Virus record (IMG/VR): IMGVR_UViG_3300042881_004014
Source of the DNA: an uncultured virus (IMG/VR IMGVR_UViG_3300042881_004014)
Taxonomy: Duplodnaviria > Heunggongvirae > Uroviricota > Caudoviricetes
DNA length: 60,861 nucleotides
Reading direction: 5' to 3' (one strand)
Shown: piece by piece, positions 23,917 to 54,488 of the stretch
Position numbering within the stretch: position 1 is the stretch's first letter
Layout of the letters: the number at the start of each line of letters is the position of its first letter
Notes under the pieces: model-generated
The model's database searches: none
The model's input: the letters and a program-made list of their open reading frames with translations, nothing else
What the model was told of the DNA's origin: nothing
Translations under genes and position numbers: made by a program

Positions 23917-24024
23917 TTTTATTCTCCTTACGTTTTTTATCTCTTTTCATTGCCAATAGGAACCATACGGTTAAACCTGCTGCACAAACACCAGCGATAT
24001 CATTCACTATATCTGATATATCCA

Positions 24025-24210
24025 TTACTTATGTCTTTTTTCGTATTTAATCTTATTCAATTCAATATCGTTAAGAATCATATCCCTCTTTTTAGTTAGT
24101 TGATTAATCCTTACACTCCTTCCCCATTTACCAAGCCAATTAACAGGTACCATAGATTCCCACTTTTGTAATTCTTTGTTTACTTCTCTAAGTTCCTTTT
24201 TAAGTGCCAT
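24025..24210 (-). CDS. Hypothetical protein
   Basis: 61-aa ORF directly behind promoter 24234-24265. Confidence 0.6.
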   Translation of the reverse strand: MALKKELREVNKELQKWESMVPVNWLGKWGRSVRINQLTKKRDMILNDIELNKIKYEKRHK

Positions 24211-24586
24211 TGTTGATTGGATTTTATATTATACAAATATACGAAATAAATCCGACATATCCAAATATTAGACGTATTTATTTTATCTCATTTCAGATAA
24301 CCATTTAGATGGTACCCCCCAAGGGGGTATCTAAGGGTGTCAATCTCCCTACCGGAAAAAAACCAGGCTCGATACGAGAACAGGTAAGAGCCCCTCGTAA
24401 CACGTTGACAATCACCTAATTACAAGAAACCTCAGTCCCCCCGTCCTCATTCACAAGCCCTTACCCACGCCCACCTCAAGCGCAGCTTTAACTCCGCCGG
24501 TTAAAGCCCCCACACTCAGGCACTTATCCTCCCTCACCTCCAGCATCTCTTTAGCAGGGGTTTCGGTTAGCCTACCTCACTTAAAC

Positions 24587-24658
24587 CTTTACTTTAGGGT
24601 AAAGTAAAGTTATAGCTTTACTTTTATGTATTAATAGTCAAGTTAAAGCTTTACTTTA
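24587..24658. repeat. Four CTTTACTTT copies (three direct, one inverted)
   Basis: Starting at 24587, 24600 (inverted), 24616 and 24649. Confidence 0.7.
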
Positions 24659-25112
24659 GGTACTGCGCTCACTGCGTTCGCTTGAGCTGTATAGCTTGTA
24701 TCTCTCTCCCCTATATACTATATGTTGTTATACTCCTATACTCCTATGTATTCTTTTTCTTCTCTATACTACTATACACTATATACCCCTTTATACTATC
24801 CGGTATATTACCATTAGGTATATTCTTAGCTATATTATTTTTATCAGATGTGTCCGGCTTCGAGTTCTCCAGGTAAGAATTTCAAACCCATAGGAATATT
24901 CCACCTGCCCCCTACGTTTTATATACGGAGGGATGGAATTTGTTACCCGGTAAGAAAAATGAACTGAACGGATTATTCCACCCTACCCTATTGCATACAA
25001 GCGCTTGGATGGATTTTCTTACCCTGGCAATAGGGCATAAGAAAAGGGGTATATCTCTATACCCCTATTTCTCCCTTAAATTAATTAACCCCTTAATTAA
25101 TAATATATTTCT

Positions 25113-25325
25113 TTAATATAGCTTTGGGACCACTAGCTCCACATAGGCCATTTCGTATGCATCTATATATGGTGTAGAATCTTCTCCAAATCTTCTTTGA
25201 AGCTCTTTAGCCAATCTATCTACCTCATCACCCATTCCTATGGATTCGGATTTAATCCTATACTCATCTACTCTTTCGTATATGCTCTCCAAGTCCCAGC
25301 TGTTCAGCGATTCGTATCCACTCAT
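25113..25325 (-). CDS. Hypothetical protein
   Basis: 70-aa ORF. Confidence 0.55.
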   Translation of the reverse strand: MSGYESLNSWDLESIYERVDEYRIKSESIGMGDEVDRLAKELQRRFGEDSTPYIDAYEMAYVELVVPKLY

Positions 25326-25557
25326 TTGCGTTCTTTATTATTTTATGTTGTTGTTCTATCATGTGATTGAGGAATACCTCAACCGCTTGTTCTCTACTCC
25401 ACTTCTTAGGATATACCAACCTATTACCCATTGGTATATACTCTTTTTTAATAAGCCCACTTCCTTTCGGTTCTTCCAATAGAAACCACTCACCATCTAC
25501 CTCTTTGAGATAGAGTAGGTTTTGTTGTTCTCTATTATTAGCTACCTGCTCTCCCAT
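25264..25557 (-). CDS. Hypothetical protein
   Basis: Likely start MGEQVAN just downstream of tRNA-like RNA. Confidence 0.5.
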   Translation of the reverse strand: MGEQVANNREQQNLLYLKEVDGEWFLLEEPKGSGLIKKEYIPMGNRLVYPKKWSREQAVEVFLNHMIEQQHKIIKNANEWIRIAEQLGLGEHIRKSR

Positions 25558-25572
25558 ATTCACTTTTATTCG

Positions 25573-25644
25573 AGCGGAGAGTTGGAGCCGCCCCAACACC
25601 TTCTACCTGGTAGGTAGATGTCTTACTCTCAAGACCTCCTCCGC
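25573..25644 (-). tRNA. Non-canonical tRNA-Gly(ACC)-like RNA, copy 1
   Basis: Cloverleaf: GCGGAGG/UCUCCGC+U73; D GUCUU/AAGAC; anticodon arm UCUAC-CUACCAG-GUAGA; T GUUGG-GGCGGCU-CCAAC. Confidence 0.75.
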
Positions 25645-25743
25645 AATTAATAGAACGATATCCGGCTTTAGTATCCCACTGCCTTATTGCAGTAGTATTC
25701 ACACATTCGGTTTTATTAGATGTTGGCTTCAACCATTCTTTTG

Positions 25744-25815
25744 AGCGGAGAGATGAAACCGCCTCACCTCCTCCATATTGGTAATATGGCGACTTTCTCT
25801 TAAGTCTTTCTCCGC
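25744..25815 (-). tRNA. Non-canonical tRNA-Gly(ACC)-like RNA, copy 2
   Basis: GCGGAGA/UCUCCGC+U73; D GACUU/AAGUC; CCAUA-UUACCAA-UAUGG; T GGUGA-GGCGGUU-UCAUC. Confidence 0.75.
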
Positions 25816-25861
25816 AAATATCTTAGTAACGTTAGAGTTCTGTCTCAATCACATCACTATG

Positions 25862-25893
25862 TAAAGATACGAAATTTAATCGATATATCCTAA
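25862..25893 (-). promoter_or_regulatory. Early promoter driving the twin tRNA-Gly-like RNAs
   Basis: TTAG-N20-TATCTTTA variant of the promoter family. Confidence 0.6.
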
Positions 25894-25904
25894 TTAAATC
25901 TCTT

Positions 25905-26135
25905 TTATTTTATAGAGAGGCCAGCCAATTGGCTCAAACTCTCTGAAAAATCTACACCGGCAATAACATTGCTTTCCTTTGGAACCCCATTAGTTTCCCA
26001 CTCCCTATTAATGAAGTAATCTAACTTACGATGAGCTGAATCAACTCCTCTTAGGTCACCACTAGCTACAGCCTCATTTAGCTGTGCAGTCCAATATTTG
26101 ATTTTAGGCCAATAGCCACTTTCATACTTACTCAT
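25905..26135 (-). CDS. Hypothetical early protein
   Basis: 76-aa ORF with AAACCCTTAA leader. Confidence 0.6.
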   Translation of the reverse strand: MSKYESGYWPKIKYWTAQLNEAVASGDLRGVDSAHRKLDYFINREWETNGVPKESNVIAGVDFSESLSQLAGLSIK

Positions 26136-26160
26136 ATCTTTTATCTTTTAAGGGTTTAAA

Positions 26161-26436
26161 TTAAGAACACATAGCGTTCCATACTAACCACGATGGAGTT
26201 CTCTTCACTCCGGCCGCTGGTTTAACATTGTTATACTCTGAGGGAACCTCAGCCGTAACAGCTACGTTACCACAATCACTTATCGATAACAACACACTAT
26301 TGAGGGTAGAGGAATGGTTATCTGAGAATCTCTTCCCAATCATAGACCTCAACTCATCAATCTTACTACCAACCTGAGTAGTTGTAATACTATTCAACTG
26401 CTCATTCATTCTGTCAATCACACTTAAATTTATCAT
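26161..26436 (-). CDS. Hypothetical early protein
   Basis: Start MINLS after AAACCCCTAA leader. Confidence 0.6.
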   Translation of the reverse strand: MINLSVIDRMNEQLNSITTTQVGSKIDELRSMIGKRFSDNHSSTLNSVLLSISDCGNVAVTAEVPSEYNNVKPAAGVKRTPSWLVWNAMCS

Positions 26437-26449
26437 ATCTCTTAGGGGT

Positions 26450-26665
26450 TTAATTAAGTTCAATTTCAACTTCCGAACCATCACTAGCGAATACACTCCT
26501 ATCGTTGTAATCAGGTAGGGTTACGTTATAGAAACCTTCGTTGAAATCCGTAAGGGTTACATCCAACCATTCGGTTTCGATTTTATTAGTTTCACAATAT
26601 ACTTCAAACTGTACCGGGTTCATACCAGCGGTTTCTTTGATTAGTTGTTGTAATGTAATTTTCAT
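26450..26665 (-). CDS. Hypothetical early protein
   Basis: Start MKITL after leader motif and promoter. Confidence 0.6.
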   Translation of the reverse strand: MKITLQQLIKETAGMNPVQFEVYCETNKIETEWLDVTLTDFNEGFYNVTLPDYNDRSVFASDGSEVEIELN

Positions 26666-32379: not shown

Positions 32380-33393
32380 TTATTCATTGTTAATAATATA
32401 CTTTTTCACAAATTCAACCCCATTGTTGATTTGTAGTTCAAATTTATCCAATCTTACCTTCATTATATCCTTAGCTTTTGGTATCTCACCTTGCCTCATT
32501 TTCAAAGTTGCATCCTTTACCTTAGATAATCCATCCACATCAATCAGTTTTATATTCGATTGAGTTCCAATCAGCGGGTCCACATTTTGTGGTACTGATA
32601 AATCGATTATAACTTTGGTACCTTCCACATCATTAAAATTTATGATATGATAGTCCGCATTGGTTGCTACTATAATGATATCAGCCAATTTAATATACCT
32701 TTGGAGGCTTGAATATCTATCACTTTTTACATCCAATTGTTTTGCTATCTTATCTGATAACGATTCAGTTCGATTCAATAACGTAATTTCGTTGGTATCC
32801 AATTCCGTAATGATATTTCTCATTGTGGCTCTACCCATCTTACCAGCACCAATTACCAAAATCGTTTTGTTCTGAATATCGGTTACATTTTCCTTAATAT
32901 ATTCAACAGCTGCGTTTGATACTGATACTGAACCCTCTGATATTTTAGTTTCTGAACGTATTGTTTTAGCTATCGATTGTGCAAAGTTGGTTATCTTTTC
33001 AAAATACCCACCCAACTTAGCTGAAATACCTGCCATTCTAAGTGCATCCTTAATCTGACCAGCCACTTCATAATCACCCAATAACTGAGAGTCCATTCCA
33101 GATGCAACTTCTACTAAATGTTCAAAACATTCCCTATCATTAATGTAATATGCTTCTCTTTTGAATAGTTCCATATCACCATCACCTACCAAAAGTTTCA
33201 AAAGTTCATCCTCTGGTTGGTCAAATGAATAGATTTCAGTTCTATTACAAGTTGAAATGATAAAAAAATGAAATAATCCGCTATTAGAATACCTTTCTAA
33301 AATAGCAGATTCAGTTAGTGCAAATTTACTTCTTACAGATAACTCAGTTTTTTTATAACTAATACCAACACAATTTAGTGGTTTAAATATCAT
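32380..33393 (-). CDS. hemA: Glutamyl-tRNA reductase (C-terminally shortened)
   Basis: STCNRTEIY catalytic motif, SGMDSQLLGDYEVAGQIK, IGAGKMG, DLSVPQNVD. Confidence 0.9.
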   Translation of the reverse strand: MIFKPLNCVGISYKKTELSVRSKFALTESAILERYSNSGLFHFFIISTCNRTEIYSFDQPEDELLKLLVGDGDMELFKREAYYINDRECFEHLVEVASGMDSQLLGDYEVAGQIKDALRMAGISAKLGGYFEKITNFAQSIAKTIRSETKISEGSVSVSNAAVEYIKENVTDIQNKTILVIGAGKMGRATMRNIITELDTNEITLLNRTESLSDKIAKQLDVKSDRYSSLQRYIKLADIIIVATNADYHIINFNDVEGTKVIIDLSVPQNVDPLIGTQSNIKLIDVDGLSKVKDATLKMRQGEIPKAKDIMKVRLDKFELQINNGVEFVKKYIINNE

Positions 33394-35128: not shown

Positions 35129-36841
35129 CTACAAGCTTTTCGATAAAATTTCTTCAACAATTTGAATATCTTCGGGATAATCAACTGCATGGGATTGGTT
35201 ATCTAACATAACCATTTTAATTTTATGCCCCATCTCTAAAAATCTAATGATTTCAATATCCTCATCATATTCTAATGGAGTTTTTTTACCAAAACTACTA
35301 AATTCTTTAAGGTGCTCTCTATTAAATGCGTATATACATACCTGCTTTTTGGGATGGTTACCATTACCTGTTTTGGTTCCGGGTATTGGATTCCTAGACA
35401 TATAGATTAACTCATCATTTAAATTGGTAATTACTTTTGGTATTTTCTTATCCTCTACATTTTCATGTTTGTTTAAATAAGACATACAATTTACAATATG
35501 GTTTGGATATTTCAACTTAGCTTGAATTACCTTATCAATATCAGTTGGGTCCAATAATGGTTCATCACCTTGGATATTTATAATAATATCAGCATCAATT
35601 TCCATTGTTGCTTCAGCAACTCTATCAGTTCCAGTTAAACAAGAATCTGAAGTTAATATTACATTATATCCATAGCTGTTAACTAAATCTACAATTTCTT
35701 CATTTTCAGTTGCTATATACACATTTTCAATTCCAACTGAATTCTTAGCTATTTCAGCAACCCAAATAATCATTTCTTTATTTTGGATTTTTGCTAATGG
35801 TTTTCCTGGGAATCTTGAAGATTTGTATCTTGCTGGAATAACAACTGCTATTTTTGGTTTTAATGTTTTTTCAATCTTTGAATAATCGTAAGTTTCTGAA
35901 TTTTCAATATCCAATAAAATATTCTCTATTCTATTTGGATTTAAAAATGAAGATTGTAATGTTTGTGGATATAATGGATGAATGTGCTTCATTCCACTTA
36001 TCATATAATTGTGAGTAAATCCCCAATTGTGAGTTATATGTAATGGAATCATCCAATCCGTTAAAACTTTATGAAGTGGTGATGAATTATATAATTTGAA
36101 TTTGTATTGCAAATATGTAACTAATTGTTCGGTCTTTACGTTTCCAACACCCCTACCCATTCCTAATAATGTACCATCCAACCACACTACACCTTCCTCT
36201 AAAGCAGATATACAATTAGCGAATGCTAATCCAATGTTATCATGTGTATGAATACCAATATCACATCCAAATTCTTTAAAAATTTTAACAATTTCTTTTA
36301 CTTTACTTGGTTCAACATTACCATATGAATCAGCAAAATATAATGCTATTGGATTAACATTTACTAATTTACTAAAATCTCGCATTTCATCATCCGATAA
36401 CATAGAAATACTCATCAAATTTATCATCAAATCATATCCTTTATTTTTTATATGATTTGCAATTCCAATTGAGTGGGTTATTTCAGAATGTTTTATTGCC
36501 AATCTACAAATTGAAAATGGTGAATCGGATTTTTGATGAATAATATTATCAATCAATGCAAAATCAATAGAATCTCCTTTAATAAAATCTTTAGCATCAA
36601 TCATAAATGCTAATTTAGAATTTAGTGGTAATCTATATTCTAATATTTCCCAAATAAATCTATCATTACATTTTCTAAATTGCCCACCTTTTAGTGGTGA
36701 TTTATAACCAATCTCAATAACATCCACACCAGACGTATCCAATGAAAATACTAAATCTTTAACCATTTTTGGTTCAAAATTCCAATTGGTATAGTATCCA
36801 CCATCTCTTAAAGTACAATCTAAAATTTTAACCTTTTTCAT
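35129..36841 (-). CDS. Fusion: DRE-TIM (HMGL-like) aldolase + KdsB-like CMP-ulosonate synthetase
   Basis: N-half DCTLRDGG, ADSYG, HTHDN, GMGRGVGN; C-half IPARYKSSRFPGKPL, TGTDR, NIQGDEP, YMSR, VDYPED. Confidence 0.88.
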   Translation of the reverse strand: MKKVKILDCTLRDGGYYTNWNFEPKMVKDLVFSLDTSGVDVIEIGYKSPLKGGQFRKCNDRFIWEILEYRLPLNSKLAFMIDAKDFIKGDSIDFALIDNIIHQKSDSPFSICRLAIKHSEITHSIGIANHIKNKGYDLMINLMSISMLSDDEMRDFSKLVNVNPIALYFADSYGNVEPSKVKEIVKIFKEFGCDIGIHTHDNIGLAFANCISALEEGVVWLDGTLLGMGRGVGNVKTEQLVTYLQYKFKLYNSSPLHKVLTDWMIPLHITHNWGFTHNYMISGMKHIHPLYPQTLQSSFLNPNRIENILLDIENSETYDYSKIEKTLKPKIAVVIPARYKSSRFPGKPLAKIQNKEMIIWVAEIAKNSVGIENVYIATENEEIVDLVNSYGYNVILTSDSCLTGTDRVAEATMEIDADIIINIQGDEPLLDPTDIDKVIQAKLKYPNHIVNCMSYLNKHENVEDKKIPKVITNLNDELIYMSRNPIPGTKTGNGNHPKKQVCIYAFNREHLKEFSSFGKKTPLEYDEDIEIIRFLEMGHKIKMVMLDNQSHAVDYPEDIQIVEEILSKSL

Positions 36842-36845
36842 AAAT

Positions 36846-37229
36846 TTATTTTATATACTTTATGTGTTCTAATGTATCTGTCCAATTTTTAAAAGTAAAT
36901 CCTTTATCATCCACATAAACAAATGCGTTTGGTTTACCCCAAACTACATCCGAAATGTATTGTTTAAAATTATAAGATTCCAACCAATCCCAAATTAACT
37001 CAGTTCCTGTTTTATCATTAATCAATGGTCTGTTTGGGTTTGATTTGCAACTGAATATTACTATTTTATAATTATCACTTAGATACTTCAACGCAGTTTC
37101 AGTTCCTTCCATTGGTTCACCATATATAGTACCATCAAAAAATCCTTTAGAATCATTATGAATTACTCCATCAAAATCTAATGCAACTACCTTTTTAGAT
37201 TTTTCCAAAAACTCAGCAAAATCTCCCAT
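36846..37229 (-). CDS. HAD-superfamily phosphatase
   Basis: LDFDGVI, KP, YVDD. Confidence 0.8.
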   Translation of the reverse strand: MGDFAEFLEKSKKVVALDFDGVIHNDSKGFFDGTIYGEPMEGTETALKYLSDNYKIVIFSCKSNPNRPLINDKTGTELIWDWLESYNFKQYISDVVWGKPNAFVYVDDKGFTFKNWTDTLEHIKYIK

Positions 37230-37823
37230 TTATATTAAAGTTATGTTTGAAATATTTTTAAGTATATTAAACTCATAATTAATATTATGAGCCGGTCCAA
37301 CTATACCCGCTTTCTTAGCTTCTGCAACTTCATCATATGTGGGGTCATAATAGTGACCTGTTTTATTTCCATCAAACCCAATCAAATGAACATTTTTATT
37401 AAAAAATAAAGATAAATTTAATGCTAATGAGGTTCCAGATGTTAACCTAGCAGTTGATTCATTCATATATGGATGCGAAACATTTAATAATCGAGTGTTG
37501 GGTTGTATATGTAAAATTTCTCTTTTACTGTTACCACGTATTTCCGATGTAGTAAATAACTGAGTTTTGTTTACATATTTTTCAAAATTAGGTAGCATGT
37601 ATTTTGTATGTGGTAATGTAAAATCACTACAATGGAAAGATATTGCTGATACTTTTGTTCCAACATCACCCTCATACCCTTCTATTTGAAAATCATTAAA
37701 CCTAATTACACATTCATACGAATCTATAAATTCCCCTTGATTATCCATTTTACCATTACCAACTAATAGTACAGTATCTGGAAAACTTTTAAATAAAGAT
37801 TGTACCGAATCGTATTTTTGCAT
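37230..37823 (-). CDS. GT29 (sialyltransferase-like) glycosyltransferase
   Basis: Sialylmotif-L-like VGNG...IDSYECVIRFN...DVGTK; S-like TSG...LIGFD; HYY; VS-like HxxxxE. Confidence 0.75.
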   Translation of the reverse strand: MQKYDSVQSLFKSFPDTVLLVGNGKMDNQGEFIDSYECVIRFNDFQIEGYEGDVGTKVSAISFHCSDFTLPHTKYMLPNFEKYVNKTQLFTTSEIRGNSKREILHIQPNTRLLNVSHPYMNESTARLTSGTSLALNLSLFFNKNVHLIGFDGNKTGHYYDPTYDEVAEAKKAGIVGPAHNINYEFNILKNISNITLI

Positions 37824-43445: not shown

Positions 43446-44015
43446 TTATTTATTTAAAAATCCTATTACTTTTTCTTTAATCCCACTTTGTTTGATACCT
43501 TCATTACTTCTAGCAGTTAGTACAAAGTTATCAAGTCCATGTCCTTGATTGTATTCCGGACTCATATTAAGGTCATCTATTGCAACCCATGTTTCAATTT
43601 CAGAATTTAATTCCAAATACTTTTCAATCTCCAATATTCTTTTTTTACTATACCAACCCTTCCAACTGAAAAGTGCATCGGATTCTGAATCCCAATCACC
43701 TAAATTTGGTGTGAATGCTAACGGTCTTTTACTAATACCTTGCTCAATATAGTAATCACCCAACTCTTCTAATGTAGCATGTAATTTCCAATCCGAACTA
43801 ACAATTATTTCAGCACCAGTTTCCTCAAGTACTTCATTCAATACCTTAATAGCTTTTTCATCGAAATTATCCAACCTTACATTCACCGGGGCTTCTTTTT
43901 GAATTAAAGATGAGTTTGGATTATCCGAACGATACTTACTCCATTTCTTACTTCTACCTCCCCAATTGTTAGAGAGGCAAATTACACCATCATTATCTAA
44001 AAATATAACTTTCAT
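43446..44015 (-). CDS. HAD-domain protein (RNA-repair-associated 'Swiss Army Knife' type)
   Basis: FLDNDGV, VSSDW, R..EI, AIDD. Confidence 0.75.
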   Translation of the reverse strand: MKVIFLDNDGVICLSNNWGGRSKKWSKYRSDNPNSSLIQKEAPVNVRLDNFDEKAIKVLNEVLEETGAEIIVSSDWKLHATLEELGDYYIEQGISKRPLAFTPNLGDWDSESDALFSWKGWYSKKRILEIEKYLELNSEIETWVAIDDLNMSPEYNQGHGLDNFVLTARSNEGIKQSGIKEKVIGFLNK

Positions 44016-44500
44016 TATTTCATTTTTTTAATACTATCCAACAATTCGGGATATTCCAATAGTAATTTTGGATTATTTTTCAAAGTTTGAATTGTAATAT
44101 CATTCTTTAACTTAGTAGTACTCCAACCATGTGCTCTTGATGTGAATATAACTTTAGGTGTTAAGTTATCACCGGTAAATCGTTTACCAATATAATCCTC
44201 ACCCAATATTCTAACATCAGGTTTAAAAAACTCAATTAATTGTATAAGCTCTTCTTCAGTTTGATAAGTATAAACCGCATCAACTGATTCTAATTCCATT
44301 AAAGTATTATATCTTTCAGCACGAGGTACAACGGGTGTATATTTATTAGCCCTATCAATAGATGGGTCATTTTGTAGAAACACCATAAAGTAATCACAAT
44401 GCTTTTTTGCAGTTTGAAAGGTGTAAACGTAACCTGGATGAATGATATCGAAGTTACCTGCGGTAAATCCTACTATCTTTTGTTCTCCGTTTATAATCAT
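44015..44500 (-). CDS. Cytidylyltransferase-like (TagD/RfaE-domain) protein
   Basis: GNFDIIHPGY, ER, GEDY, WSTT. Confidence 0.8.
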   Translation of the reverse strand: MIINGEQKIVGFTAGNFDIIHPGYVYTFQTAKKHCDYFMVFLQNDPSIDRANKYTPVVPRAERYNTLMELESVDAVYTYQTEEELIQLIEFFKPDVRILGEDYIGKRFTGDNLTPKVIFTSRAHGWSTTKLKNDITIQTLKNNPKLLLEYPELLDSIKKMK

Positions 44501-44796
44501 TTTATTCTTTGTTTATAATCTCCCACTTAAAAGGAGGTCTATTTCTTTGATACTCACGCATTGACCAATCAATATCATCAGTTTTTAATGTTATTAATTC
44601 TGGTTGTGGGTTGTTATAATCCAACCAAGTGATTTTAATAATGTAATTCATACTTTAAAATTTACCCCATTGGGATTTATGTCTATTTTCTTCAGCTATC
44701 TTAAAACCCAACCAAATATCCTTAAAGAATGATTTGATATTATTAATTATTTTGTTCATATTACAAATATACTAATTATTTTTTAATTATCCAAAT

Positions 44797-45141
44797 TTAT
44801 TTCCAAAATATCTGTATTCCTATTAATATTGCTGCTAAAATCAATGATATACCTGTTTTTGCATTAATACCCTCATTCATAAATATAAATGTGAGAATAG
44901 CAAACGTAATCATCCCACCAGCTTGCCCTATAAATCTTCCCGGCCATAATTGCCCATCAAAGTGTTCAGCAACCAAAGAAGTTCCTTTAATAAAAATGTA
45001 AGATATTAAGGTCCCACCCATTAGAGATATTAAGAATGGATTACGTTTGAACCAAGGCCAAACGAATTGCCCATTGGTTTGTATCCAAATTATACATTGG
45101 GCTATTGTAAATAATATAACTCCCCAAATTAGGTTTTTCAT
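44797..45141 (-). CDS. Four-TM small membrane protein
   Basis: Four hydrophobic helices. Confidence 0.65.
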   Translation of the reverse strand: MKNLIWGVILFTIAQCIIWIQTNGQFVWPWFKRNPFLISLMGGTLISYIFIKGTSLVAEHFDGQLWPGRFIGQAGGMITFAILTFIFMNEGINAKTGISLILAAILIGIQIFWK

Positions 45142-45150
45142 ACAATCATT

Positions 45151-45462
45151 TTATTTATGAGATGAAAACCCTTTTATGGTACGGCCATCTTTTTCCAATT
45201 TAGTTTCGATATCTTCTAATCGTTTATCAAAATCATCCAAAGATGTATTGATATTATTTAGTGCGGAATTTATATCTGTAAATCCTTTATTAACATCATC
45301 TACTATTGTATAATCATTTTCTTCTAATTCTTCCAATTTTCCACCATTGACTGGTATTTTGGGTTTAGATGTTCTAACAATTAAAATGGTTAACATTACT
45401 ATTGGTGCAAATATTAATAATACTATAAATATTGCTACGATTGTATTGAATATTTCTATCAT
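45151..45462 (-). CDS. Membrane-anchored coiled-coil protein
   Basis: N-terminal TM plus heptad repeats. Confidence 0.65.
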   Translation of the reverse strand: MIEIFNTIVAIFIVLLIFAPIVMLTILIVRTSKPKIPVNGGKLEELEENDYTIVDDVNKGFTDINSALNNINTSLDDFDKRLEDIETKLEKDGRTIKGFSSHK

Positions 45463-45466
45463 GCTT

Positions 45467-46078
45467 TTAAGTTATAAATTCAGTATCTTTCTTTAAGTCA
45501 ACATAGACTCCTTTATAAATACCTTCATTAAATTTATTAATAACCTTTTCAACCAACATTGTTGGAGTACCTGTTATTTGGTACAATCCATCCATTAGTT
45601 TAATGACATCTCTAGTTGAATCTATTGGATTAATTGGTGTAATTGTTTCTACTTCCAGTACACCATCTATATATTTTTGAAATTTTAAATAATTTTTAAT
45701 TATTAACATATTATCACTGTTAATTTCAACAACTACACCCTTTGATAAATCTCTGAATGTGTTCCATAAATACCAATTAACACATTTTAAATCAACTAAT
45801 ATTCTATTCTTAAATGCCAATCTATATCCATCATCTAAAATTTCTTTCAATTTAGGTAAATCGGGACTATCAGATACCAAACAAACATCAGCATCCCAAG
45901 TTTTAGGATTTGATGGGTTGTTTAAATACTCAGCAAATCCACCAGCTAAATAAACTTCATATTCAGATAAATCATGCAGCTCTGATAGTTCTTTGTACCA
46001 CATAGTTAATGTGTACAACTCAGGTCTACCCCACACAAGGGTAGTTGTTAAATTATCAAATCTACAAAAAAAATCCAT
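45467..46078 (-). CDS. Putative pol-beta-family nucleotidyltransferase
   Basis: YLAGGFA...TWDADV...VD. Confidence 0.5.
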   Translation of the reverse strand: MDFFCRFDNLTTTLVWGRPELYTLTMWYKELSELHDLSEYEVYLAGGFAEYLNNPSNPKTWDADVCLVSDSPDLPKLKEILDDGYRLAFKNRILVDLKCVNWYLWNTFRDLSKGVVVEINSDNMLIIKNYLKFQKYIDGVLEVETITPINPIDSTRDVIKLMDGLYQITGTPTMLVEKVINKFNEGIYKGVYVDLKKDTEFIT

Positions 46079-46228
46079 TATCTATTTTTAATACCTTTGT
46101 TTTTACCGGCAATTATAGATTCTAATTTATCAGTTAGTTTTTCAATAGTATCTGAATTTCCTTGATTACCTTTCAGTTTCTCAGTTTTAATTGTATTGGT
46201 AAGTAAATTAATCACTTCCTCTTTTTTC

Positions 46229-46534
46229 TTATCGTTCATACAGTTTGTTTAAATATTCAAATACTTTTTCTGAAAATAATGTATTGTACACATCACTTCC
46301 TATTTCAGATGCTTCAACTATGATACCTGATTTTGCATAATTCAATGCATATGCGATATCGTATTGTGAATATATTGGTTTTGCTCTATCAAGCTCTTCA
46401 TTAATCATATTGATAAAATCATCTGATTTTAACCACTCATCATACTCAGCATCTCTTAAATCAGCATTGTAAATATATCCTTCCAATTCTTCCTCTGGAA
46501 TACTATTAATCATAAATTCTTTTGTTCTACCCAT
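46229..46534 (-). CDS. Hypothetical protein
   Basis: 101-aa ORF. Confidence 0.6.
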   Translation of the reverse strand: MGRTKEFMINSIPEEELEGYIYNADLRDAEYDEWLKSDDFINMINEELDRAKPIYSQYDIAYALNYAKSGIIVEASEIGSDVYNTLFSEKVFEYLNKLYER

Positions 46535-46572
46535 TTTTATTAATTGTTATGTTATACTCTAATATACAAATT

Positions 46573-47310
46573 TTATACTTTTTCGTTTGTTGGTTTTAAC
46601 CACATACCATCTTTAAATATTAGGTTTAAAAAACCAGGGATGATTTCATCTACATCCATAAGTAATCTAAGACTTTTTGGTGTATCATATTTCATCATCT
46701 TCATTAACTCTTCTCTAATTCTTTCACCACTAACAGTTTGTTCTAATTTCTTTAGGATGTTAGGTTGTTTCATTGCTTCCCAAATATCATCACTCATAAC
46801 AAAATCCTTTGTGATTGTAAATCTTAATGCTCTTAGAATTCTCAAAGGGTCATCCATCATAGTTTGTTTAGCTGGTAATGGAGTTCTTAATAAACCTATT
46901 TTTAAATCATCAATTCCACCAAATATATCTATAAGGTTTCCATCAATATCCTCAGCCATAGCGTTTAATGTAAAATCTCTTCTAAGTAAATCATCTTCCA
47001 ATGTTCCCAATTCTAAGATTGGTCTACGAGTTCCCTCAACATATCCAACTTCCTTTCTTGCCATTACGAAATCAGCAACCATCCCAGAGTATTTATGTTC
47101 TTTTGGGAACTTAGCTCTGATAGTAAAACACTCAGGTGTACTTAGGAATATTTCAAAATCATTTACAGTCATCCAATCTGTCATTATTTGAAATCCACTC
47201 TCTACAGTCCAATCTAAGTTGTCCAAAACAAATGTGAAGTCAATATCTTTTGTATCAACCCCTAACAACCTATCTCTAACACAACCCCCTACTTTGAATA
47301 TCTTTGGCAT
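46573..47310 (-). CDS. cca: tRNA nucleotidyltransferase (class II CCA-adding/poly(A) polymerase family)
   Basis: VGGCVRD, DIDF, ARKE, DLLRRDFTLNAMA, DDPLRILRALRF, SGERIREEL. Confidence 0.88.
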   Translation of the reverse strand: MPKIFKVGGCVRDRLLGVDTKDIDFTFVLDNLDWTVESGFQIMTDWMTVNDFEIFLSTPECFTIRAKFPKEHKYSGMVADFVMARKEVGYVEGTRRPILELGTLEDDLLRRDFTLNAMAEDIDGNLIDIFGGIDDLKIGLLRTPLPAKQTMMDDPLRILRALRFTITKDFVMSDDIWEAMKQPNILKKLEQTVSGERIREELMKMMKYDTPKSLRLLMDVDEIIPGFLNLIFKDGMWLKPTNEKV

Positions 47311-47410
47311 AACCTATCTTTTTTATTACATAGTAAATATACAAAATATAATTGATATATCCTAATATTTTAAAAGAAAAAGAGCAACTATTTTAGCTGC
47401 TCTTTATCAA

Positions 47411-48556
47411 TTAGTGAGAATCTCCCACATCATTTTTCTCTCCATAAATAAGGTAGTCAGGGTTTATAACCTTAGCTACTTTATTACGTTCACCTGTATG
47501 GTATTTGATTACAATTCCTTCATGTGGAACCTTAGTACCTTCAATCATATTTTTAAATACGAATTTATCTTGCACCTCTTGCGACCAATTTCCAAAATGT
47601 AATATTTCAACATAAGGTAATTGTAATATATCTTTAATCATCAATTTAGAATTGATAGGACTTAAATACTCACCATTCTCCTTTACATCGAATCCTACAA
47701 ACTCCATTTCTGTCAAACCATAATCATAGTTCTTTTGAATTCCGGCCCCATAGATTTCTCCATAGATTGTGATTCCATCTCCAATTTCTGGTTCCATTGA
47801 ATTACTTTTAACGTATTCCCATAACCTCTTTTTGATTTCATATTTATCCGCAATTTGGTACCAAACATTGGTATCATAGAAACCTTGAGAATCCGAACCC
47901 TTTTCTACATTATGTGAACCAACTACAAATTCATACCCAATCCACTTATCAGCAAACCCAATGAACTTCTTAACCTTATCCCAAAATGATAATTTAAGTT
48001 TCTTAACAATACCATATCTAGCATTAGTACCATGTATCTTACGAGTAATTTCAACGGTATCTTCTTCAGTAAACATTCCATCCACATTTTTTAGGTTTGG
48101 GAATTTATAGTAGATGTGGAAGTTTGGATTGTCTTGGTATCTAATCTTTCTACCTCCGGCTAATTGGATTTGTTTAACTGGTGGTTCGTATTTAGTAATT
48201 CCTAAGAATTCCATACAATCATCACCTTCGCCTAAATCAAAATCACCCATAGTAACTCTACCACGTAGGTATTTCATTGGGATAATTAAACATTCAGAAT
48301 AAACACCTCTTAATTTTACAGTCCTAACTCTATTACCTTTACGAAGATAGTTAGTTACACCCATCTCTTCAGAAAGTTCTTCAGGTATAACCGCATCAGT
48401 TGTAGCAATGATTGTTTCATCACCAATAGTAAACTCTCCCTTCTTAGTGATTGCATTCCAACCACCAGCAACTACCAATTCGATGTTATCAGCACCCTCA
48501 ATTGGATTTACTTCTTTGATTTTTGCTATGTAGCAAACTGAATTTTCGTTTTTCAT
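47411..48556 (-). CDS. RNA ligase, DRB0094/Rnl2 family
   Basis: N-terminal IEGADNIE and LRGVYSECL; KIHGTN; GEIYG.GIQ; FDV; EGIV; K.I. Confidence 0.88.
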   Translation of the reverse strand: MKNENSVCYIAKIKEVNPIEGADNIELVVAGGWNAITKKGEFTIGDETIIATTDAVIPEELSEEMGVTNYLRKGNRVRTVKLRGVYSECLIIPMKYLRGRVTMGDFDLGEGDDCMEFLGITKYEPPVKQIQLAGGRKIRYQDNPNFHIYYKFPNLKNVDGMFTEEDTVEITRKIHGTNARYGIVKKLKLSFWDKVKKFIGFADKWIGYEFVVGSHNVEKGSDSQGFYDTNVWYQIADKYEIKKRLWEYVKSNSMEPEIGDGITIYGEIYGAGIQKNYDYGLTEMEFVGFDVKENGEYLSPINSKLMIKDILQLPYVEILHFGNWSQEVQDKFVFKNMIEGTKVPHEGIVIKYHTGERNKVAKVINPDYLIYGEKNDVGDSH

Positions 48557-48559
48557 TTC

Positions 48560-48973
48560 TTATAATTTTATTTCAAATCTATTTCTCATTCTTTCAACTG
48601 CTTCAGTTGGAACACCATGTTGGTTTACACCACCATGTCTATTCTCAACTACTAATGAGTAAACCTGATATCCATAGGTTTTTGCTAAGGTAAAATATAT
48701 ATCCATCTCCCATTTTTGAGTAAAAGTGTTAGATACTACTATTTTTCTATAAAATTGGTCATTAACTAATGAATCCTTCATATAAGTTTCTACTGTATTT
48801 CTACAAAACTCATGTGCATCTTTTAGTTTAGAACCATCGAAGTTATAGTTACCTTCCTTATCATAAAAATACTTATCAGCTTCACATACTAAGAAATCAC
48901 TTTCTACTATTGAATTTGCTAATGTTGATTTACCACTACCTGGCAATCCTCTTAATAAAAATAATTCTTTCAT
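48560..48973 (-). CDS. P-loop polynucleotide kinase-like (AAA_33) protein
   Basis: RGLPGSGKST, EAD, VSNTF, HGVP. Confidence 0.85.
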   Translation of the reverse strand: MKELFLLRGLPGSGKSTLANSIVESDFLVCEADKYFYDKEGNYNFDGSKLKDAHEFCRNTVETYMKDSLVNDQFYRKIVVSNTFTQKWEMDIYFTLAKTYGYQVYSLVVENRHGGVNQHGVPTEAVERMRNRFEIKL

Positions 48974-48976
48974 AAC

Positions 48977-49639
48977 TTACTTTTTATAGTTTTCTACAAT
49001 TGTATGATGGTCTTTATCTAAAAATCCATCAATAGGTTGTTTATCTAATATTCTAACAATATCACTCATACTAATTGGTGATAAGTTGTTACCATCTACA
49101 CCAACATCCATAACTTTACCTCTACCAACTCTTCGGTTAGGTGGTAAGTGAACGTGTCCATGTAAGTGAGGAACTCCCTTACCTAAACCATCCCAACTTG
49201 CTATTGGGTAGTGCATACACACAAAATGAGTTCCATCATGTTTACCACTACCATCGGGCCATTTGATACTCAAATCTAAATATTGATGAACTGAACTGAA
49301 TATCTCAGCGATACCATCTCTATTGTTAGCTATGTGGTGGTCGTGGTTACCTAATACTAAGTGAATGTTTTGACAAACAATTCGGTTTCTAAATTCAGCG
49401 ATTGAATCAAATCCACCAAAAGACCAGTCACCTAAGTGAATTAAGATATCATCTTGTCCAACTACTGCATTGATATTATTAACTAATACGGCATTCATTT
49501 GGTTCAATGTATCGAAATCTCTGAAATGGTTTGCACCAGCTCTATCCCATTGTGTTGTTCCTTTACAAATGTTAGCATGGTTATAGTGGGTATCACTTGT
49601 GAACCATACTTTTTGTCCTTTATTTAGTAATATCTTCAT
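48977..49639 (-). CDS. Metallophosphoesterase
   Basis: TSDTH, HLGD, GNHD, HYP, HGHVH, DVGVD. Confidence 0.88.
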   Translation of the reverse strand: MKILLNKGQKVWFTSDTHYNHANICKGTTQWDRAGANHFRDFDTLNQMNAVLVNNINAVVGQDDILIHLGDWSFGGFDSIAEFRNRIVCQNIHLVLGNHDHHIANNRDGIAEIFSSVHQYLDLSIKWPDGSGKHDGTHFVCMHYPIASWDGLGKGVPHLHGHVHLPPNRRVGRGKVMDVGVDGNNLSPISMSDIVRILDKQPIDGFLDKDHHTIVENYKK

Positions 49640-52740: not shown

Positions 52741-52770
52741 GCTATCTTAAATTAAATTATTAATATTTTG

Positions 52771-52856
52771 CGGAAAGAGTAGGATTCGAACCCACGATAC
52801 CTTTCAGTATGCCGGTTTTCAAGACCGGTGCAATCGACCAACTCTGCCATCTTTCC
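52771..52856 (-). tRNA. tRNA-Ser(TGA)
   Basis: Cloverleaf, long variable arm, CT-TGA-AA loop. Confidence 0.92.
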
Positions 52857-52863
52857 TCTTTTG

Positions 52864-52935
52864 TAGTCCCACCGGGAATCGAACCCGACTTTTCAGGATG
52901 AAAACCTGATGACCTAACCGATAGTCGATAGGACC
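52864..52935 (-). tRNA. tRNA-Glu(TTC)
   Basis: TCAGG-TT-TTC-AT-CCTGA. Confidence 0.92.
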
Positions 52936-53074
52936 ATATAAATGTGAGCCAAACTTATGTACTTAGTGGGTGTACTCCGTTTATACTACTCTCACATTCA
53001 AATCAGTAGTGTGATGTTAATGGTTGAAAGATATTTACCTTCCTTTCGGCCTACCATCGTGGCCCATGCGTTTG

Positions 53075-53150
53075 TGGAGCGAATAGCAGGAATCGAACCT
53101 GCATCTCCAACTTGGAAGGATGGAGTAATAAGCCATTATACGATATTCGC
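53075..53150 (-). tRNA. tRNA-Gly(TCC), encoded CCA
   Basis: CT-TCC-AA loop, U73-CCA. Confidence 0.92.
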
Positions 53151-53156
53151 TTATAT

Positions 53157-54010: not shown

Positions 54011-54015
54011 AATAC

Positions 54016-54353: not shown

Positions 54354-54359
54354 AAAACG

Positions 54360-54480: not shown

Positions 54481-54488
54481 ATTTTTTA

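What the first reader, a model, noticed from the sequence alone, without database searches (positions are those of the whole stretch)
25573..25815. Twin covarying tRNA-Gly(ACC)-like RNAs with rewired D and T loops in the early region
Seen: two 72-nt cloverleafs, 27 kb from the tRNA array, directly behind an early promoter. Their D, anticodon and T stems differ in sequence but stay fully paired (GUCUU/AAGAC vs GACUU/AAGUC; UCUAC/GUAGA vs CCAUA/UAUGG). Both keep anticodon ACC, acceptor GCGGAG, U73, D-loop AGAG and T-loop GGCGG(C/U)U in place of GG and UUCG, and both lack U8. Established: G1-C72, C2-G71, C35C36 and U73 are GlyRS identity elements; A34 Gly anticodons are essentially absent in bacteria; staphylococcal non-proteinogenic tRNA-Gly also lose GG/TTC. 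Inference: a selected RNA class, either glycyl donors outside translation, decoys for anticodon nucleases or defence sensors, or nuclease-resistant tRNAs.
Basis: partly seen in the sequence, partly recalled or inferred. Interest (0 to 1): 0.85.

Follow-up and report, generated by a model that had tools for sequence, protein, structure and literature searches.

The report
Rewired glycine tRNA twins in phages
Two neighbouring 72-base RNA genes in a giant lake-water phage belong to a so far undescribed, phage-only family of glycine-tRNA look-alikes that keep every signal for being loaded with glycine, but whose core and anticodon loop are rebuilt in ways ordinary codon-reading tRNAs do not tolerate.

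Summary
Two 72-nt cloverleafs lie on the minus strand (E2 25815..25744, E1 25644..25573). ARAGORN and Rfam's tRNA model miss both.

They are members of a family: 65 distinct sequences in IMG/VR phage contigs, and none in 185,579 cellular species genomes.

- **Structure:** all four stems covary (99.7% of cells paired against 76% in shuffles).
- **Invariant in 65/65:** G1-C72, C2-G71, G3-C70, U73, C35, C36 (sequence marks typical of bacterial tRNA-Gly, several shown to be GlyRS determinants), plus a rewired core (A8/U14, A18/G55, G19-C56).
- **Anticodon:** ACC is not conserved; position 34 is U in 54 and A in 11.
- **Anticodon loop:** U33 is lost in 34/65, and 32-38 is Watson-Crick in 65/65, giving a 6-bp stem and a 5-nt loop.
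- **Arrangement:** genes come in one to three copies, usually inside phage tRNA arrays, and have the same C74/A-rich trailer as this phage's own tRNAs.
- **Spacer:** the 99-nt stretch between the twins is itself a conserved structured RNA module.

Best reading (about 0.5): glycine-accepting tRNA paralogues that work off the ribosome, like staphylococcal non-proteogenic tRNA-Gly. Main rival (about 0.3): odd but decoding, defence-hardened tRNA-Gly. The function was not tested. This is a new variant of a known kind.

The parts
25820..25848 (-). Sigma-70-like promoter match (TTGAGA, 17 nt, TAAGAT) ending 5 nt upstream of E2
   Evidence: This is a consensus match only: 6 such sites in 24000-26500 against 7.0 expected from shuffles.
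25744..25815 (-). E2, the upstream non-canonical tRNA-Gly-like gene. Anticodon-position ACC, loop UUACCAA, T-loop GGCGGUU, A8, U73. It is followed by C74 and an A-rich trailer.
   Evidence: (94.9 bits with model R1). Not called by ARAGORN or by Rfam tRNA at E<=10.
25646..25742 (-). Spacer RNA module. A roughly 10-bp closing helix P1 encloses the motifs UUGAAG, AUAAAACCG (hairpin loop) and CCGGAUAU. The same module sits between tRNA or tRNA-like genes in other phages.
   Evidence: Alignments. P1 has 7 of 10 pairs with changes on both sides. Model R2, built without the window, finds it in 12 further loci at E<=0.01, 8 distinct contigs. In the window it scores 14.9 bits, E 0.011, as the best and full-length hit exactly here with filters off.
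25573..25644 (-). E1, the downstream non-canonical tRNA-Gly-like gene. Anticodon-position ACC, loop CUACCAG, T-loop GGCGGCU, A8, U73, C74.
   Evidence: (97.2 bits with R1). Not called by ARAGORN or Rfam.
25264..25557 (-). 97-aa ORF of unknown function that starts 16 nt after E1. Homologues sit directly downstream of a family member in two other phage lineages.
   Evidence: Homologues: 60% identity in L117/L186 and 57% in L187/L188, each with an R1 hit (83-89 bits) just upstream. No Pfam, PHROG or Atlas lead.
25045..25066 (-). Terminator-like hairpin (9-bp stem followed by a T-run), a possible end of the transcription unit
   Evidence: consensus scan only.

Best explanation
E1 and E2 are two paralogous genes of a phage-specific, structurally rewired tRNA-Gly family.

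**Shown**
- They fold as class-I cloverleafs.
- They keep every sequence mark typical of bacterial tRNA-Gly: G1-C72, C2-G71, G3-C70, U73, C35, C36 and G10-C25 with G45. Several of these are experimentally shown GlyRS determinants.
- They keep the elbow pair G19-C56.
- They carry the same 3' trailer (C74, then A-rich) as the phage's 25 ordinary tRNA genes.

**Inferred**
- They are cut out by the tRNA-processing enzymes, given CCA (the phage encodes a CCA-adding enzyme) and charged with glycine by the host GlyRS.
- The anticodon is kept for GlyRS recognition rather than for codon reading. Only C35 and C36 are fixed, U33 is dispensable, 32-38 is a Watson-Crick pair that closes the loop to 5 nt, and U8, G18, U54 and U55 are all replaced.
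- The charged RNA therefore acts mostly off the ribosome, as the staphylococcal non-proteogenic tRNA-Gly do.

Within the off-ribosome reading I cannot separate two sub-models. One is a glycyl donor for an unknown transferase. The other is a sacrificial or sponge pool for host toxins that read the tRNA-Gly acceptor end. I lean slightly towards the sponge, because no known transferase family was found and the phage carries RNA-repair genes.
For: **Family and structure**
- 65 distinct sequences among 110 model hits in 62 phage loci plus the window.
- Stems covary.
- No match in either of two scans of 185,579 cellular species genomes.

**Glycine identity**
- G1-C72, C2-G71, G3-C70, U73, C74 and C35C36 are 65/65. 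G10-C25 with G45 is 61/65.
- These are the conserved or determinant positions listed for bacterial tRNA-Gly in PMC9976931 (passages read).

**Loop not built for decoding**
- Position 33 is A 32, U 31, C 1, G 1.
- 32-38 is Watson-Crick in 65/65, with four pair types.
- RNAalifold adds this sixth pair on its own.
- Elongator architecture depends on the almost invariant U33 and does not allow a Watson-Crick 32-38 pair (PMC5041475, passages read).

**Core**
- A8/U14/A21, A18/G55 and G19/C56 are 65/65.
- 54:58 covaries: G:G in 56, U:A in 9.

**Parallel with staphylococcal non-proteogenic tRNA-Gly (PMC7826273, passages read)**
- TGC/TGT in place of TTC, a 6-bp anticodon stem with a 5-nt loop, and poor EF-Tu and ribosome binding.

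**Not needed as the only decoder**
- The window phage also has a canonical tRNA-Gly(UCC) with encoded CCA.
- Four loci (L143, L152, L172, L175) hold a canonical UCC gene plus a non-canonical UCC gene.

**Kept where tRNAs are few**
- Two near-complete phage genomes with 5 canonical tRNAs carry 2 copies each.
- One with 3 canonical tRNAs and no tRNA-Gly carries 1.
- Copies come as tandems of 2-3.

**tRNA-like maturation**
- All 25 canonical tRNAs of the window end N73-C74 followed by an A-rich trailer, as E1 and E2 do.
- A CCA-adding enzyme gene lies at 46573-47307.

**Context of tRNA conflict**
- RNA ligase, kinase, phosphatase and HAD_SAK_2 repair genes lie at 43.4-49.6 kb.
- TacT reads U73 and G71 (PMC9976931). 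FaRel2 reads G1-C72, C2-G71, G4-C69 and R5-Y68 of tRNA-Gly (PMC11559606, passages read).
Against: **No direct data.** There is no evidence for charging, processing or ribosome exclusion.

**Points that fit decoding**
- Both window copies keep U33 and A37.
- Their ACC matches GGU, the phage's commonest glycine codon: GGT 3647, GGA 2349, GGG 434, GGC 139.
- Position 34 is only U or A, the two letters that would read the common codons.
- In 4 of the 6 near-complete genomes looked at, the non-canonical anticodons complement the canonical tRNA-Gly set.
- One subgroup (U54:A58, U33 kept) is called tRNA-Gly(tcc) by ARAGORN in 9 of 9 loci, and there it is the only tRNA found in the fetched locus.

**EF-Tu estimate does not discriminate**
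- The predicted EF-Tu T-stem energy is weak: -9.4 to -9.6 kcal/mol in 62/65 and -8.1 in 2. The quoted bacterial tRNA-Gly mean is -10.8.
- The canonical or near-canonical phage tRNA-Gly genes give -8.1 to -10.2 (with Table 2 of PMC3239215).

**No partner enzyme**
- FemAB, Acetyltransf_6, Leu/Phe-transferase and Pth profiles all give 0 hits in the 270-kb genome.
- The neighbours have no annotated tRNA link.

**Weak transcription evidence**
- It consists only of contigs from RNA libraries of related phages, which may contain DNA.
Confidence: 0.5

Rival explanations
1. They are working elongator tRNA-Gly isoacceptors: ACC for GGU in this phage, and UCC for GGA/GGG elsewhere. Their loop and core have been altered so that host tRNA-targeting nucleases, toxins or modification-dependent sensors no longer recognise them. 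Two to three copies make up for weaker performance.
For: - Anticodon and codon usage fit (GGT 3647 of 6569 glycine codons).
- U33 and A37 are kept in both window copies.
- Position 34 is never G or C.
- The non-canonical anticodons complement the canonical tRNA-Gly set in 4 of 6 genomes.
- Two near-complete genomes (G002, G005) have no canonical tRNA-Gly.
- The genes sit in tRNA arrays with tRNA-type trailers.
- ARAGORN calls the U54:A58 subgroup as tRNA-Gly (9 of 9 loci).
- An intermediate with a canonical T loop exists (L151:2295-2370).
- Phage tRNAs that escape PARIS and retron defences are known (PMC11559606, discussion passage; PMC12673091, abstract in the search listing only).
- The phage carries a tRNA repair module.
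Against: - U33 is absent in 34 of 65 sequences. Several phages have no copy with U33: both copies are A33 in L137, L113, L146 and L147.
- 32-38 is Watson-Crick in 65/65.
- G004 holds a canonical GCC gene plus two ACC copies and nothing for GGR. Four loci hold a canonical UCC gene and a non-canonical UCC gene.
- The A8/U14 and A18/G55 core is found in no cellular genome scanned.
- Known escape variants change the part that the nuclease reads, not the whole elbow (recalled, not checked).
Confidence: 0.3
2. They are cis-acting tRNA-like processing handles. RNase P and RNase Z cut at them to release the spacer RNA and to create the 5' end of the downstream 97-aa ORF mRNA. Charging would be irrelevant.
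For: - The spacer module is flanked within 0-2 nt by tRNA or tRNA-like genes wherever it is found. One example lies between tRNA-Thr and tRNA-Ala in L126.
- The ORF97 start lies 16 nt after E1, and its homologues follow an element in L186 and L187/L188.
- The host seems not to use Shine-Dalgarno sites: 33 of 329 genes, the same as background.
- An RNA-library contig of a relative runs from an E1-like 3' end into the ORF.
Against: - A processing handle does not need C35, C36, U73 or G3-C70, yet these are 65/65.
- Many copies are direct tandems with 0-1 nt between them and nothing to release.
- In L137 the pair is followed by its own terminator-like hairpin and T-run rather than a gene (read from the sequence).
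- Ordinary tRNAs would do the same job.
Confidence: 0.1
3. They are uncharged decoys for anticodon nucleases or other sensors that bind the tRNA-Gly anticodon loop.
For: - The copy number is high.
- The phage encodes an RNA ligase, kinase and phosphatase repair set, which implies that the host attacks RNA.
Against: - A decoy must mimic the target loop. Here position 33 varies freely, position 34 is U or A, and 32-38 closes the loop.
- The acceptor end, not the loop, is the most conserved part.
Confidence: 0.05

Closest known systems
Staphylococcal non-proteogenic tRNA-Gly (NP1-NP3; S. epidermidis Ia/Ib)
   Same: - Glycine identity is kept.
- The T loop has G in place of U55 (TGC/TGT in place of TTC).
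- G18 is lost.
- The anticodon stem has 6 bp with a 5-nt loop.
- The 51-63 pair is weak for EF-Tu.
- They coexist with ordinary tRNA-Gly.

Sources: PMC7826273 and PMC3239215, passages read.
   Different: - The phage family has A8/U14 (the staphylococcal ones keep U8 as s4U), A18-G19 rather than UU/CU-type D loops, G54:G58 in most members, and U33 lost in half.
- It is found only in phage contigs.
- No Fem-type transferase is present in the genome.
- It is a functional analogue at most, not a member. The staphylococcal lineage is described as restricted to staphylococci.
Canonical bacterial or phage tRNA-Gly (Rfam RF00005; for example the window's own tRNA-Gly(UCC) at 53075-53150)
   Same: - A class-I cloverleaf with a 4-nt variable loop.
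- The same acceptor end: GCG...CGC, then U73.
- C35, C36, A37, G10-C25/G45 and G19-C56.
- The same genomic setting and trailer.
- An intermediate form exists (L151:2295-2370).

Sources.
   Different: - No RF00005 match: the window at E<=10, and 0 of 13 elements in six loci at E<=1.
- ARAGORN of 18 elements of the G54:G58-type loci.
- U8, G18, U54 and U55 are all replaced, U33 is not conserved, and 32-38 is paired.
- Model R1 scores canonical tRNAs at 27-46 bits, against 59-102 for family members.
Phage tRNA isoacceptors that evade tRNA-targeting defences (T5 tRNAs against PARIS and Retron-Eco7)
   Same: They are phage-encoded extra copies of a tRNA whose host counterpart can be attacked. They sit in tRNA arrays (PMC11559606, discussion passage; PMC12673091, abstract in the search listing).
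   Different: As far as I recall, those are otherwise canonical, decoding tRNAs. Here the whole core and loop geometry are changed, and no defence system targeting tRNA-Gly in the unknown host is identified.

Membership tests
tRNA (Rfam RF00005 / ARAGORN-type elongator tRNA) | Cloverleaf with a 7-bp acceptor stem, D, anticodon and T arms, and a short variable loop | tested here: met
tRNA (Rfam RF00005 / ARAGORN-type elongator tRNA) | Reaches the family's covariance-model score or is called by a tRNA finder | tested here: not met
   There is no RF00005 hit in window 25400-26000 even at E<=10. 0 of 13 relatives are hit at E<=1. ARAGORN calls neither window copy and 0 of 18 elements in nine related loci, although it calls the U54:A58 subgroup in 9 of 9 loci.
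tRNA (Rfam RF00005 / ARAGORN-type elongator tRNA) | Conserved core nucleotides U8-A14, G18-U55, G19-C56 and U54-A58 | tested here: not met
   A8/U14 65/65; A18/G55 65/65; 54:58 is G:G in 56 and U:A in 9. Only G19-C56 is kept, 65/65.
tRNA (Rfam RF00005 / ARAGORN-type elongator tRNA) | U33 and a 7-nt anticodon loop with 32-38 not Watson-Crick | tested here: not met
   In the family, U33 is present in 31/65 and 32-38 is Watson-Crick in 65/65. The two window copies keep U33 but have C32-G38 and U32-A38. The criterion is taken from PMC5041475 (passages read).
Bacterial tRNA-Gly (GlyRS substrate) | Sequence marks typical of bacterial tRNA-Gly: U73, G1-C72, C2-G71, (G3-C70), C35, C36, and G10-Y25 with G45 | tested here: met
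   All are 65/65, except G10-C25/G45 at 61/65. The list is from PMC9976931 (passages read).
Bacterial tRNA-Gly (GlyRS substrate) | Actually charged with glycine | not testable with these tools
   This needs in vitro glycylation or acid-gel and tRNA-seq analysis of infected cells.
Non-proteogenic tRNA-Gly (Staphylococcus type) | T loop without U55 (xGC), D loop without GG, and 6-bp anticodon stem | tested here: met
   G55 65/65, A18 65/65 (G19 is kept), and 32-38 paired 65/65. The description is from PMC7826273.
Non-proteogenic tRNA-Gly (Staphylococcus type) | Weak EF-Tu binding set by T-stem pairs 49-65, 50-64 and 51-63 | tested here: inconclusive
   The calculated energy is -9.4 to -9.6 kcal/mol in 62/65, similar to the -9.6/-9.7 quoted for NP tRNAs. 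Canonical phage tRNA-Gly genes also give -8.1 to -10.2 (with Table 2 of PMC3239215).
Non-proteogenic tRNA-Gly (Staphylococcus type) | A Fem-type aminoacyl-tRNA transferase as user | tested here: not met
   PF02388 and PF13480 give 0 hits in the 270-kb phage genome. The host genome is unknown.
Non-proteogenic tRNA-Gly (Staphylococcus type) | Common descent with the staphylococcal lineage | tested here: not met
   There was no match in either of the two pattern scans of the cellular genome collection. The core changes differ (A8/U14, A18, G54:G58). This looks like a convergent resemblance.

The most novel reading that the evidence does not exclude
Phages of lake and other waters carry a dedicated, non-decoding glycyl-tRNA. 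The RNA is charged by the host GlyRS but kept away from EF-Tu and the ribosome by a rebuilt elbow and a closed anticodon loop.

It could serve in one of two ways:
- as a sacrificial sponge for anti-phage toxins that read the tRNA-Gly acceptor end (TacT-type acetyltransferases, FaRel2-type pyrophosphokinases);
- as the glycine donor for a still unknown tRNA-dependent transferase.

The conserved RNA module that tRNA processing would release from between the twins would be a second, independent new small RNA.
Probability: 0.3. Interest if true: 0.85.

Novelty: new variant of a known kind. Interest (0 to 1): 0.72.

Why it matters
tRNA finders and Rfam miss these genes, so phage tRNA censuses undercount them. 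Yet they are among the best kept tRNA-type genes in this phage group: present in 1-3 copies even in near-complete genomes with only 3-5 ordinary tRNAs.

If they are charged but not decoding, they would be the first viral counterpart of the staphylococcal non-proteogenic tRNA-Gly. That would point either to a new counter-defence principle (a substrate sponge for tRNA-directed toxins) or to an unknown tRNA-dependent glycylation reaction in phage infection.

If they do decode, they show that a working tRNA can dispense with U8, G18, U54, U55 and often U33. That matters for tRNA structure rules and for tRNA engineering.

The invariant A8:U14, A18/G55 and G54:G58 set is a natural experiment on the tRNA elbow.

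Tried and rejected
**RNA family and similarity searches**
- Rfam at gathering score and at E<=10 or E<=1 gave no family for the cloverleafs or the spacer. Only chance-level hits appeared: PyrG leader, SNORD26, Entero_OriR.
- blastn against 50,697 isolated phage genomes gave nothing for the 1-kb locus and only short chance matches for the 247-nt locus and for a subgroup member.
- Earlier findings of this scan: nothing by place, sequence or words.

**Partner enzymes**
- FemAB, Acetyltransf_6, Leu/Phe-transferase and peptidyl-tRNA hydrolase gave 0 hits in the genome.
- The window's glutamyl-tRNA reductase homologue was tested as a co-occurring user: 0 of 5 other genomes have one, so it is not linked.
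- Neighbour-gene clustering over the L111-L175 loci turned up a GT25 glycosyltransferase, an APS-kinase-like protein, a 4HBT thioesterase, thymidylate synthase, MGS and a methyltransferase. In the small-phage subgroup it turned up ParB-like, TerS, TerL and portal genes. None has an evident tRNA link.

**ORF97**
- No Pfam, PHROG or Atlas lead.

**EF-Tu T-stem calculation**
- It does not discriminate.

**Spacer pseudoknot**
- A pairing between the spacer's AACCG loop and CGGUU was tested. It shows only one-sided changes and is not formed in the window subtype, so it is left open.

**Other readings considered**
- Plus-strand reading (anticodon GGU, Thr): rejected. G-U pairs would become A-C mismatches, and E2 does not fold as a cloverleaf on the plus strand.
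- Overlapping ORFs (25264-25599 from a GTG start, and 25538-25732) as the reason for conservation: rejected, given the compensatory changes.

**RNA libraries**
- The parts of E1 and E2 not covered by contigs say nothing either way.
- The DNA runs may be the source sample.

**Not run**
- The metagenome-contig scan, complex prediction and structure prediction were not used.

**Literature**
- Searches for a prior description found none in the held library: 'phage-encoded tRNA'/tRNAGly/non-canonical; tRNA-like/bacteriophage/anticodon nuclease/decoy; GOLLD/tRNA-like/phage; viral tRNA/noncanonical tRNA/metagenom/tRNAGly.
- The supplements of PMC7826273 (decoding and phylogeny sections) were not opened.
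Full report
**What is there**

The window is bases 127195-188055 of a 270,865-bp IMG/VR phage record. The record has 32.8% G+C, and 315 of 329 crude ORFs lie on the minus strand. DNA runs that hold the locus are all labelled lake water, but they may be the source sample.

On the minus strand, 25815..25744 (E2) and 25644..25573 (E1) are two 72-nt cloverleafs separated by 99 nt.
- Both fold as cloverleafs at minimum free energy, with z about -3.
- ARAGORN lists 25 tRNAs and a tmRNA at 52.7-58.9 kb but not these two.
- Rfam gives no tRNA hit for them at gathering score or at E<=10.
- Only two copies exist in the genome.

**A real family, found only in phages**

- Pattern scans of IMG/VR first gave three identical contigs and one diverged relative that also has twins.
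- A covariance model built from those four sequences (R1) then found many full-length hits.
- A relaxed full-length pattern matched 65 viral contigs.
- It matched none of the genomes of 185,579 bacterial and archaeal species, in either a 4-nt or a 5-nt variable-loop version.
- I searched 62 of those 65 loci plus the window with R1. The three loci left out are identical copies of the window locus. This gave 110 hits at E<=1e-6 and 70 distinct sequences.
- Five of the 70 are canonical or near-canonical tRNA-Gly with a TTCGA or TTCAA T loop. That leaves 65 distinct family members.
- Family members score 59-102 bits and ordinary tRNAs 27-46 bits.
- On 26 distinct sequences, 99.7% of pair cells are standard pairs. 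Shuffles give 76.0% and slid partners 46-50%. 15 of 22 pairs change on both sides.
- RNAalifold predicts the same cloverleaf independently: 23 pairs, 16 compensatory.

**What is conserved, over the 65 distinct sequences**

| Feature | Count |
|---|---|
| G1-C72, C2-G71, G3-C70, U73, C74, C35, C36 | 65/65 each |
| G10-C25 with G45 | 61/65 |
| A8, U14, A21 | 65/65 |
| A18 with G55 | 65/65 |
| G19-C56 | 65/65 |
| 54:58 | G:G 56, U:A 9 |
| Position 34 | U 54, A 11 |
| Position 33 | A 32, U 31, C 1, G 1 |
| 32-38 Watson-Crick | 65/65 (C-G 55, A-U 7, U-A 2, G-C 1) |
| A37 | 59/65 |

- The first two rows correspond to the conserved or determinant positions described for bacterial tRNA-Gly (PMC9976931, passages read).
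- Position 54:58 is a tertiary covariation.
Only NCC is.
- The anticodon arm is a 6-bp stem with a 5-nt loop, which RNAalifold also draws.
- Elongator tRNAs depend on an almost invariant U33, and their loop geometry does not allow a Watson-Crick 32-38 pair (PMC5041475, passages read).

**Two subgroups**

- Members with U54:A58 and U33 sit in contigs of 4-32 kb with higher element G+C. Most lie between ParB-like and small-terminase genes, and the element is the only tRNA that ARAGORN finds in the fetched locus. ARAGORN calls them tRNA-Gly(tcc) in 9 of 9 loci.
- The group to which the window belongs mostly has G54:G58. It is called in 0 of 18 cases, and Rfam tRNA matches 0 of 13 elements at E<=1.
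- One gene, L151:2295-2370, is intermediate. It has A8, a GG D loop, a canonical T loop and an 8-nt anticodon loop.
- I infer from the intermediate form that the family grew out of a phage tRNA-Gly(UCC).

**Setting**

- Copies come singly, as direct tandems (0-1 nt between model hits), or 65-121 nt apart. Some are about 0.4-0.5 kb apart; in the two such loci checked a canonical tRNA-Thr lies between them.
- Most lie inside phage tRNA arrays.
- Near-complete relatives have few ordinary tRNAs yet keep the family:

| Genome | Canonical tRNAs | Canonical tRNA-Gly | Family copies |
|---|---|---|---|
| G001 | 5 | GCC | 2 |
| G002 | 5 | none | 2 |
| G003 | 10 | GCC | 1 |
| G004 | 9-10 | GCC | 2, both ACC with A33 |
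| G005 | 3 | none | 1, stand-alone |

- The window phage has a canonical tRNA-Gly(UCC) with encoded CCA plus the two ACC copies.
- All 25 canonical tRNA genes of the window end N73-C74 followed by an A-rich trailer. E1 and E2 do the same.
- A CCA-adding enzyme gene lies at 46573-47307.
- This supports, but does not show, tRNA-type maturation.

**The locus as a unit**

- A sigma-70-like match ends 5 nt before E2. Such matches are not enriched here.
- E1 is followed after 16 nt by a 97-aa ORF of unknown function, then a terminator-like hairpin at 25066..25045.
- The ORF's homologues (57-60% identity) sit directly downstream of a family member in two other lineages, L186 and L187/L188. These phages share wider synteny, so this is not independent proof of a link.
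- Contigs from RNA libraries of three studies, from related phages (90-99% alike), cover the ORF and part of the spacer. One contig spans the spacer and the adjoining ends of E1 and E2. One runs from an E1-like 3' end into the ORF. Such libraries can contain DNA, so this is weak.

**The spacer is a second conserved RNA**

- Aligning spacers from other loci shows three shared features:
  - a closing helix of about 10 bp;
  - the motifs UUGAAG or UUAAAG, AUAAA(A/G)CCG in a hairpin loop, and ACCGG(U/A)UAU;
  - a variable inserted hairpin.
- The closing helix has 7 of 10 pairs with changes on both sides.
- A model built from seven sequences without the window (R2) finds the module in 12 further loci at E<=0.01, which come from 8 distinct contigs. 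It always abuts tRNA or tRNA-like genes on both sides. In L126 it lies between tRNA-Thr and tRNA-Ala.
- In the window the best hit is full-length, at exactly 25646-25742, but weak: 14.9 bits, E 0.011 in 601 nt.
- A loop-to-3' pseudoknot is possible in some subtypes but is not supported by double changes.
- Its function is unknown. tRNA processing on both sides would release it.

**How it most likely works**

Shown:
- the fold;
- the conservation pattern;
- the restriction to phage contigs;
- the tRNA-type trailers.

Inferred:
- processing, CCA addition and glycylation by host GlyRS;
- little or no codon reading.

The reasoning runs as follows. What is fixed is what GlyRS reads. What the ribosome needs (U33, an open 7-nt loop, the standard elbow) is not kept.

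The same combination is described for the staphylococcal non-proteogenic tRNA-Gly: G in place of U55, loss of G18, and a 6-bp anticodon stem. Those bind EF-Tu and ribosomes poorly and feed FmhB, FemA and FemB (PMC7826273, passages read).

No Fem-type or Leu/Phe-type transferase and no Pth was found in the phage. The phage does carry an RNA ligase, kinase, phosphatase and HAD_SAK_2 set.

Toxins are known that pick tRNA-Gly by its acceptor end:
- TacT reads U73 and G71 (PMC9976931);
- FaRel2 reads G1-C72, C2-G71, G4-C69 and R5-Y68 (PMC11559606);
- AtaT2 is recalled only, from no call.

I therefore put about 0.5 on an off-ribosome glycyl-tRNA (sponge or donor).

**Against this reading, and the main rival**

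- Both window copies keep U33.
- ACC fits GGU, the commonest glycine codon: GGT 3647, GGA 2349, GGG 434, GGC 139.
- Position 34 is only U or A.
- In 4 of 6 genomes the non-canonical anticodons complement the canonical set. In G004, and in the four loci that hold two UCC genes, they do not.
- The EF-Tu T-stem estimate is weak: -9.4 to -9.6 kcal/mol in 62 of 65, against a quoted bacterial tRNA-Gly mean of -10.8. Canonical phage tRNA-Gly genes give -8.1 to -10.2, so it does not discriminate (Table 2 of PMC3239215).

A hardened, still decoding tRNA-Gly therefore keeps about 0.3. A pure processing-handle role gets about 0.1. An anticodon-loop decoy gets about 0.05.

**Host (inferred)**

- Shine-Dalgarno-like words precede 33 of 329 ORFs, the same as background (12%).
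- TAnnTTTG is twice as frequent upstream of genes as in background, 17% against 8%.
- This pattern is typical of Bacteroidota. That link is recalled knowledge, not a test.

**Novelty**

I found no description in Rfam, in isolated phage genomes, or in four literature searches of the held library. I rate it a new variant of a known kind: a tRNA-Gly paralogue with a non-proteogenic-like design, here phage-borne and with its own invariant core.

Noticed in passing
window 25646-25742 (-); also L113, L114, L126, L131, L137, L139, L146, L147, L151, L154, L159, L163, L171: The spacer between the twins is a conserved structured RNA module. It has a roughly 10-bp closing helix and the motifs UUGAAG, AUAAAACCG and ACCGGAUAU. 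It always lies wedged between two tRNA or tRNA-like genes, and it is not in Rfam.
   Followed up: yes
window 53157-53568 (-): A full-length GOLLD RNA (257 bits) lies directly beside the canonical tRNA-Gly(UCC) at 53075-53150, inside the tRNA array.
   Followed up: no
window 56350-56719 (-): A phage-encoded tmRNA (115 bits) sits in the middle of the tRNA array. ARAGORN gives its tag peptide.
   Followed up: no
window 52770-58930 (-): All 25 canonical tRNA genes end N73-C74 followed by an A-rich trailer. Only tRNA-Gly(UCC) encodes a full CCA. This suggests dependence on the phage's own CCA-adding enzyme (46573-47307).
   Followed up: partly
window 43446-49636 (-): An RNA repair cluster: HAD_SAK_2 domain protein, cytidylyltransferase-like protein, CCA-adding enzyme, RNA ligase, AAA_33 kinase and a metallophosphatase.
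   Followed up: no
window 32380-33390 (-): A phage gene with glutamyl-tRNA reductase N-terminal and NAD-binding domains (GlutR_N, E 7e-31). It is not found in 5 other phage genomes that carry the RNA family.
   Followed up: partly
window 35129-37820 (-): A fused HMGL-like/CMP-sugar cytidylyltransferase protein and a family-29 (sialyltransferase-type) glycosyltransferase. This may be a sialic-acid-like sugar pathway carried by a phage.
   Followed up: no
L151:2295-2370 (+): An intermediate tRNA-Gly gene. It has A8 with a canonical T loop and a GG D loop, and an 8-nt anticodon loop (CAUUCCAG). It lies next to two family members and a second spacer module (2416-2498).
   Followed up: partly
window 24211-25112: About 0.9 kb without an ATG-started ORF of 45 aa or more in a genome that is otherwise 93% covered by ORFs. 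It holds two terminator-like hairpins on the minus strand (25066..25045 and 24983..24966).
   Followed up: no
L116, L121, L122, L134, L138, L145, L148, L155, L166, L169: In a group of contigs of 4-32 kb with higher element G+C, a U54:A58-type family member is the only tRNA gene ARAGORN finds in the fetched locus (checked for part of them). It sits between a ParB-like gene and the small terminase subunit.
   Followed up: partly
whole genome G000: There is no Shine-Dalgarno signal upstream of genes (33 of 329, equal to background). TAnnTTTG is enriched twofold. 315 of 329 ORFs lie on one strand.
   Followed up: partly
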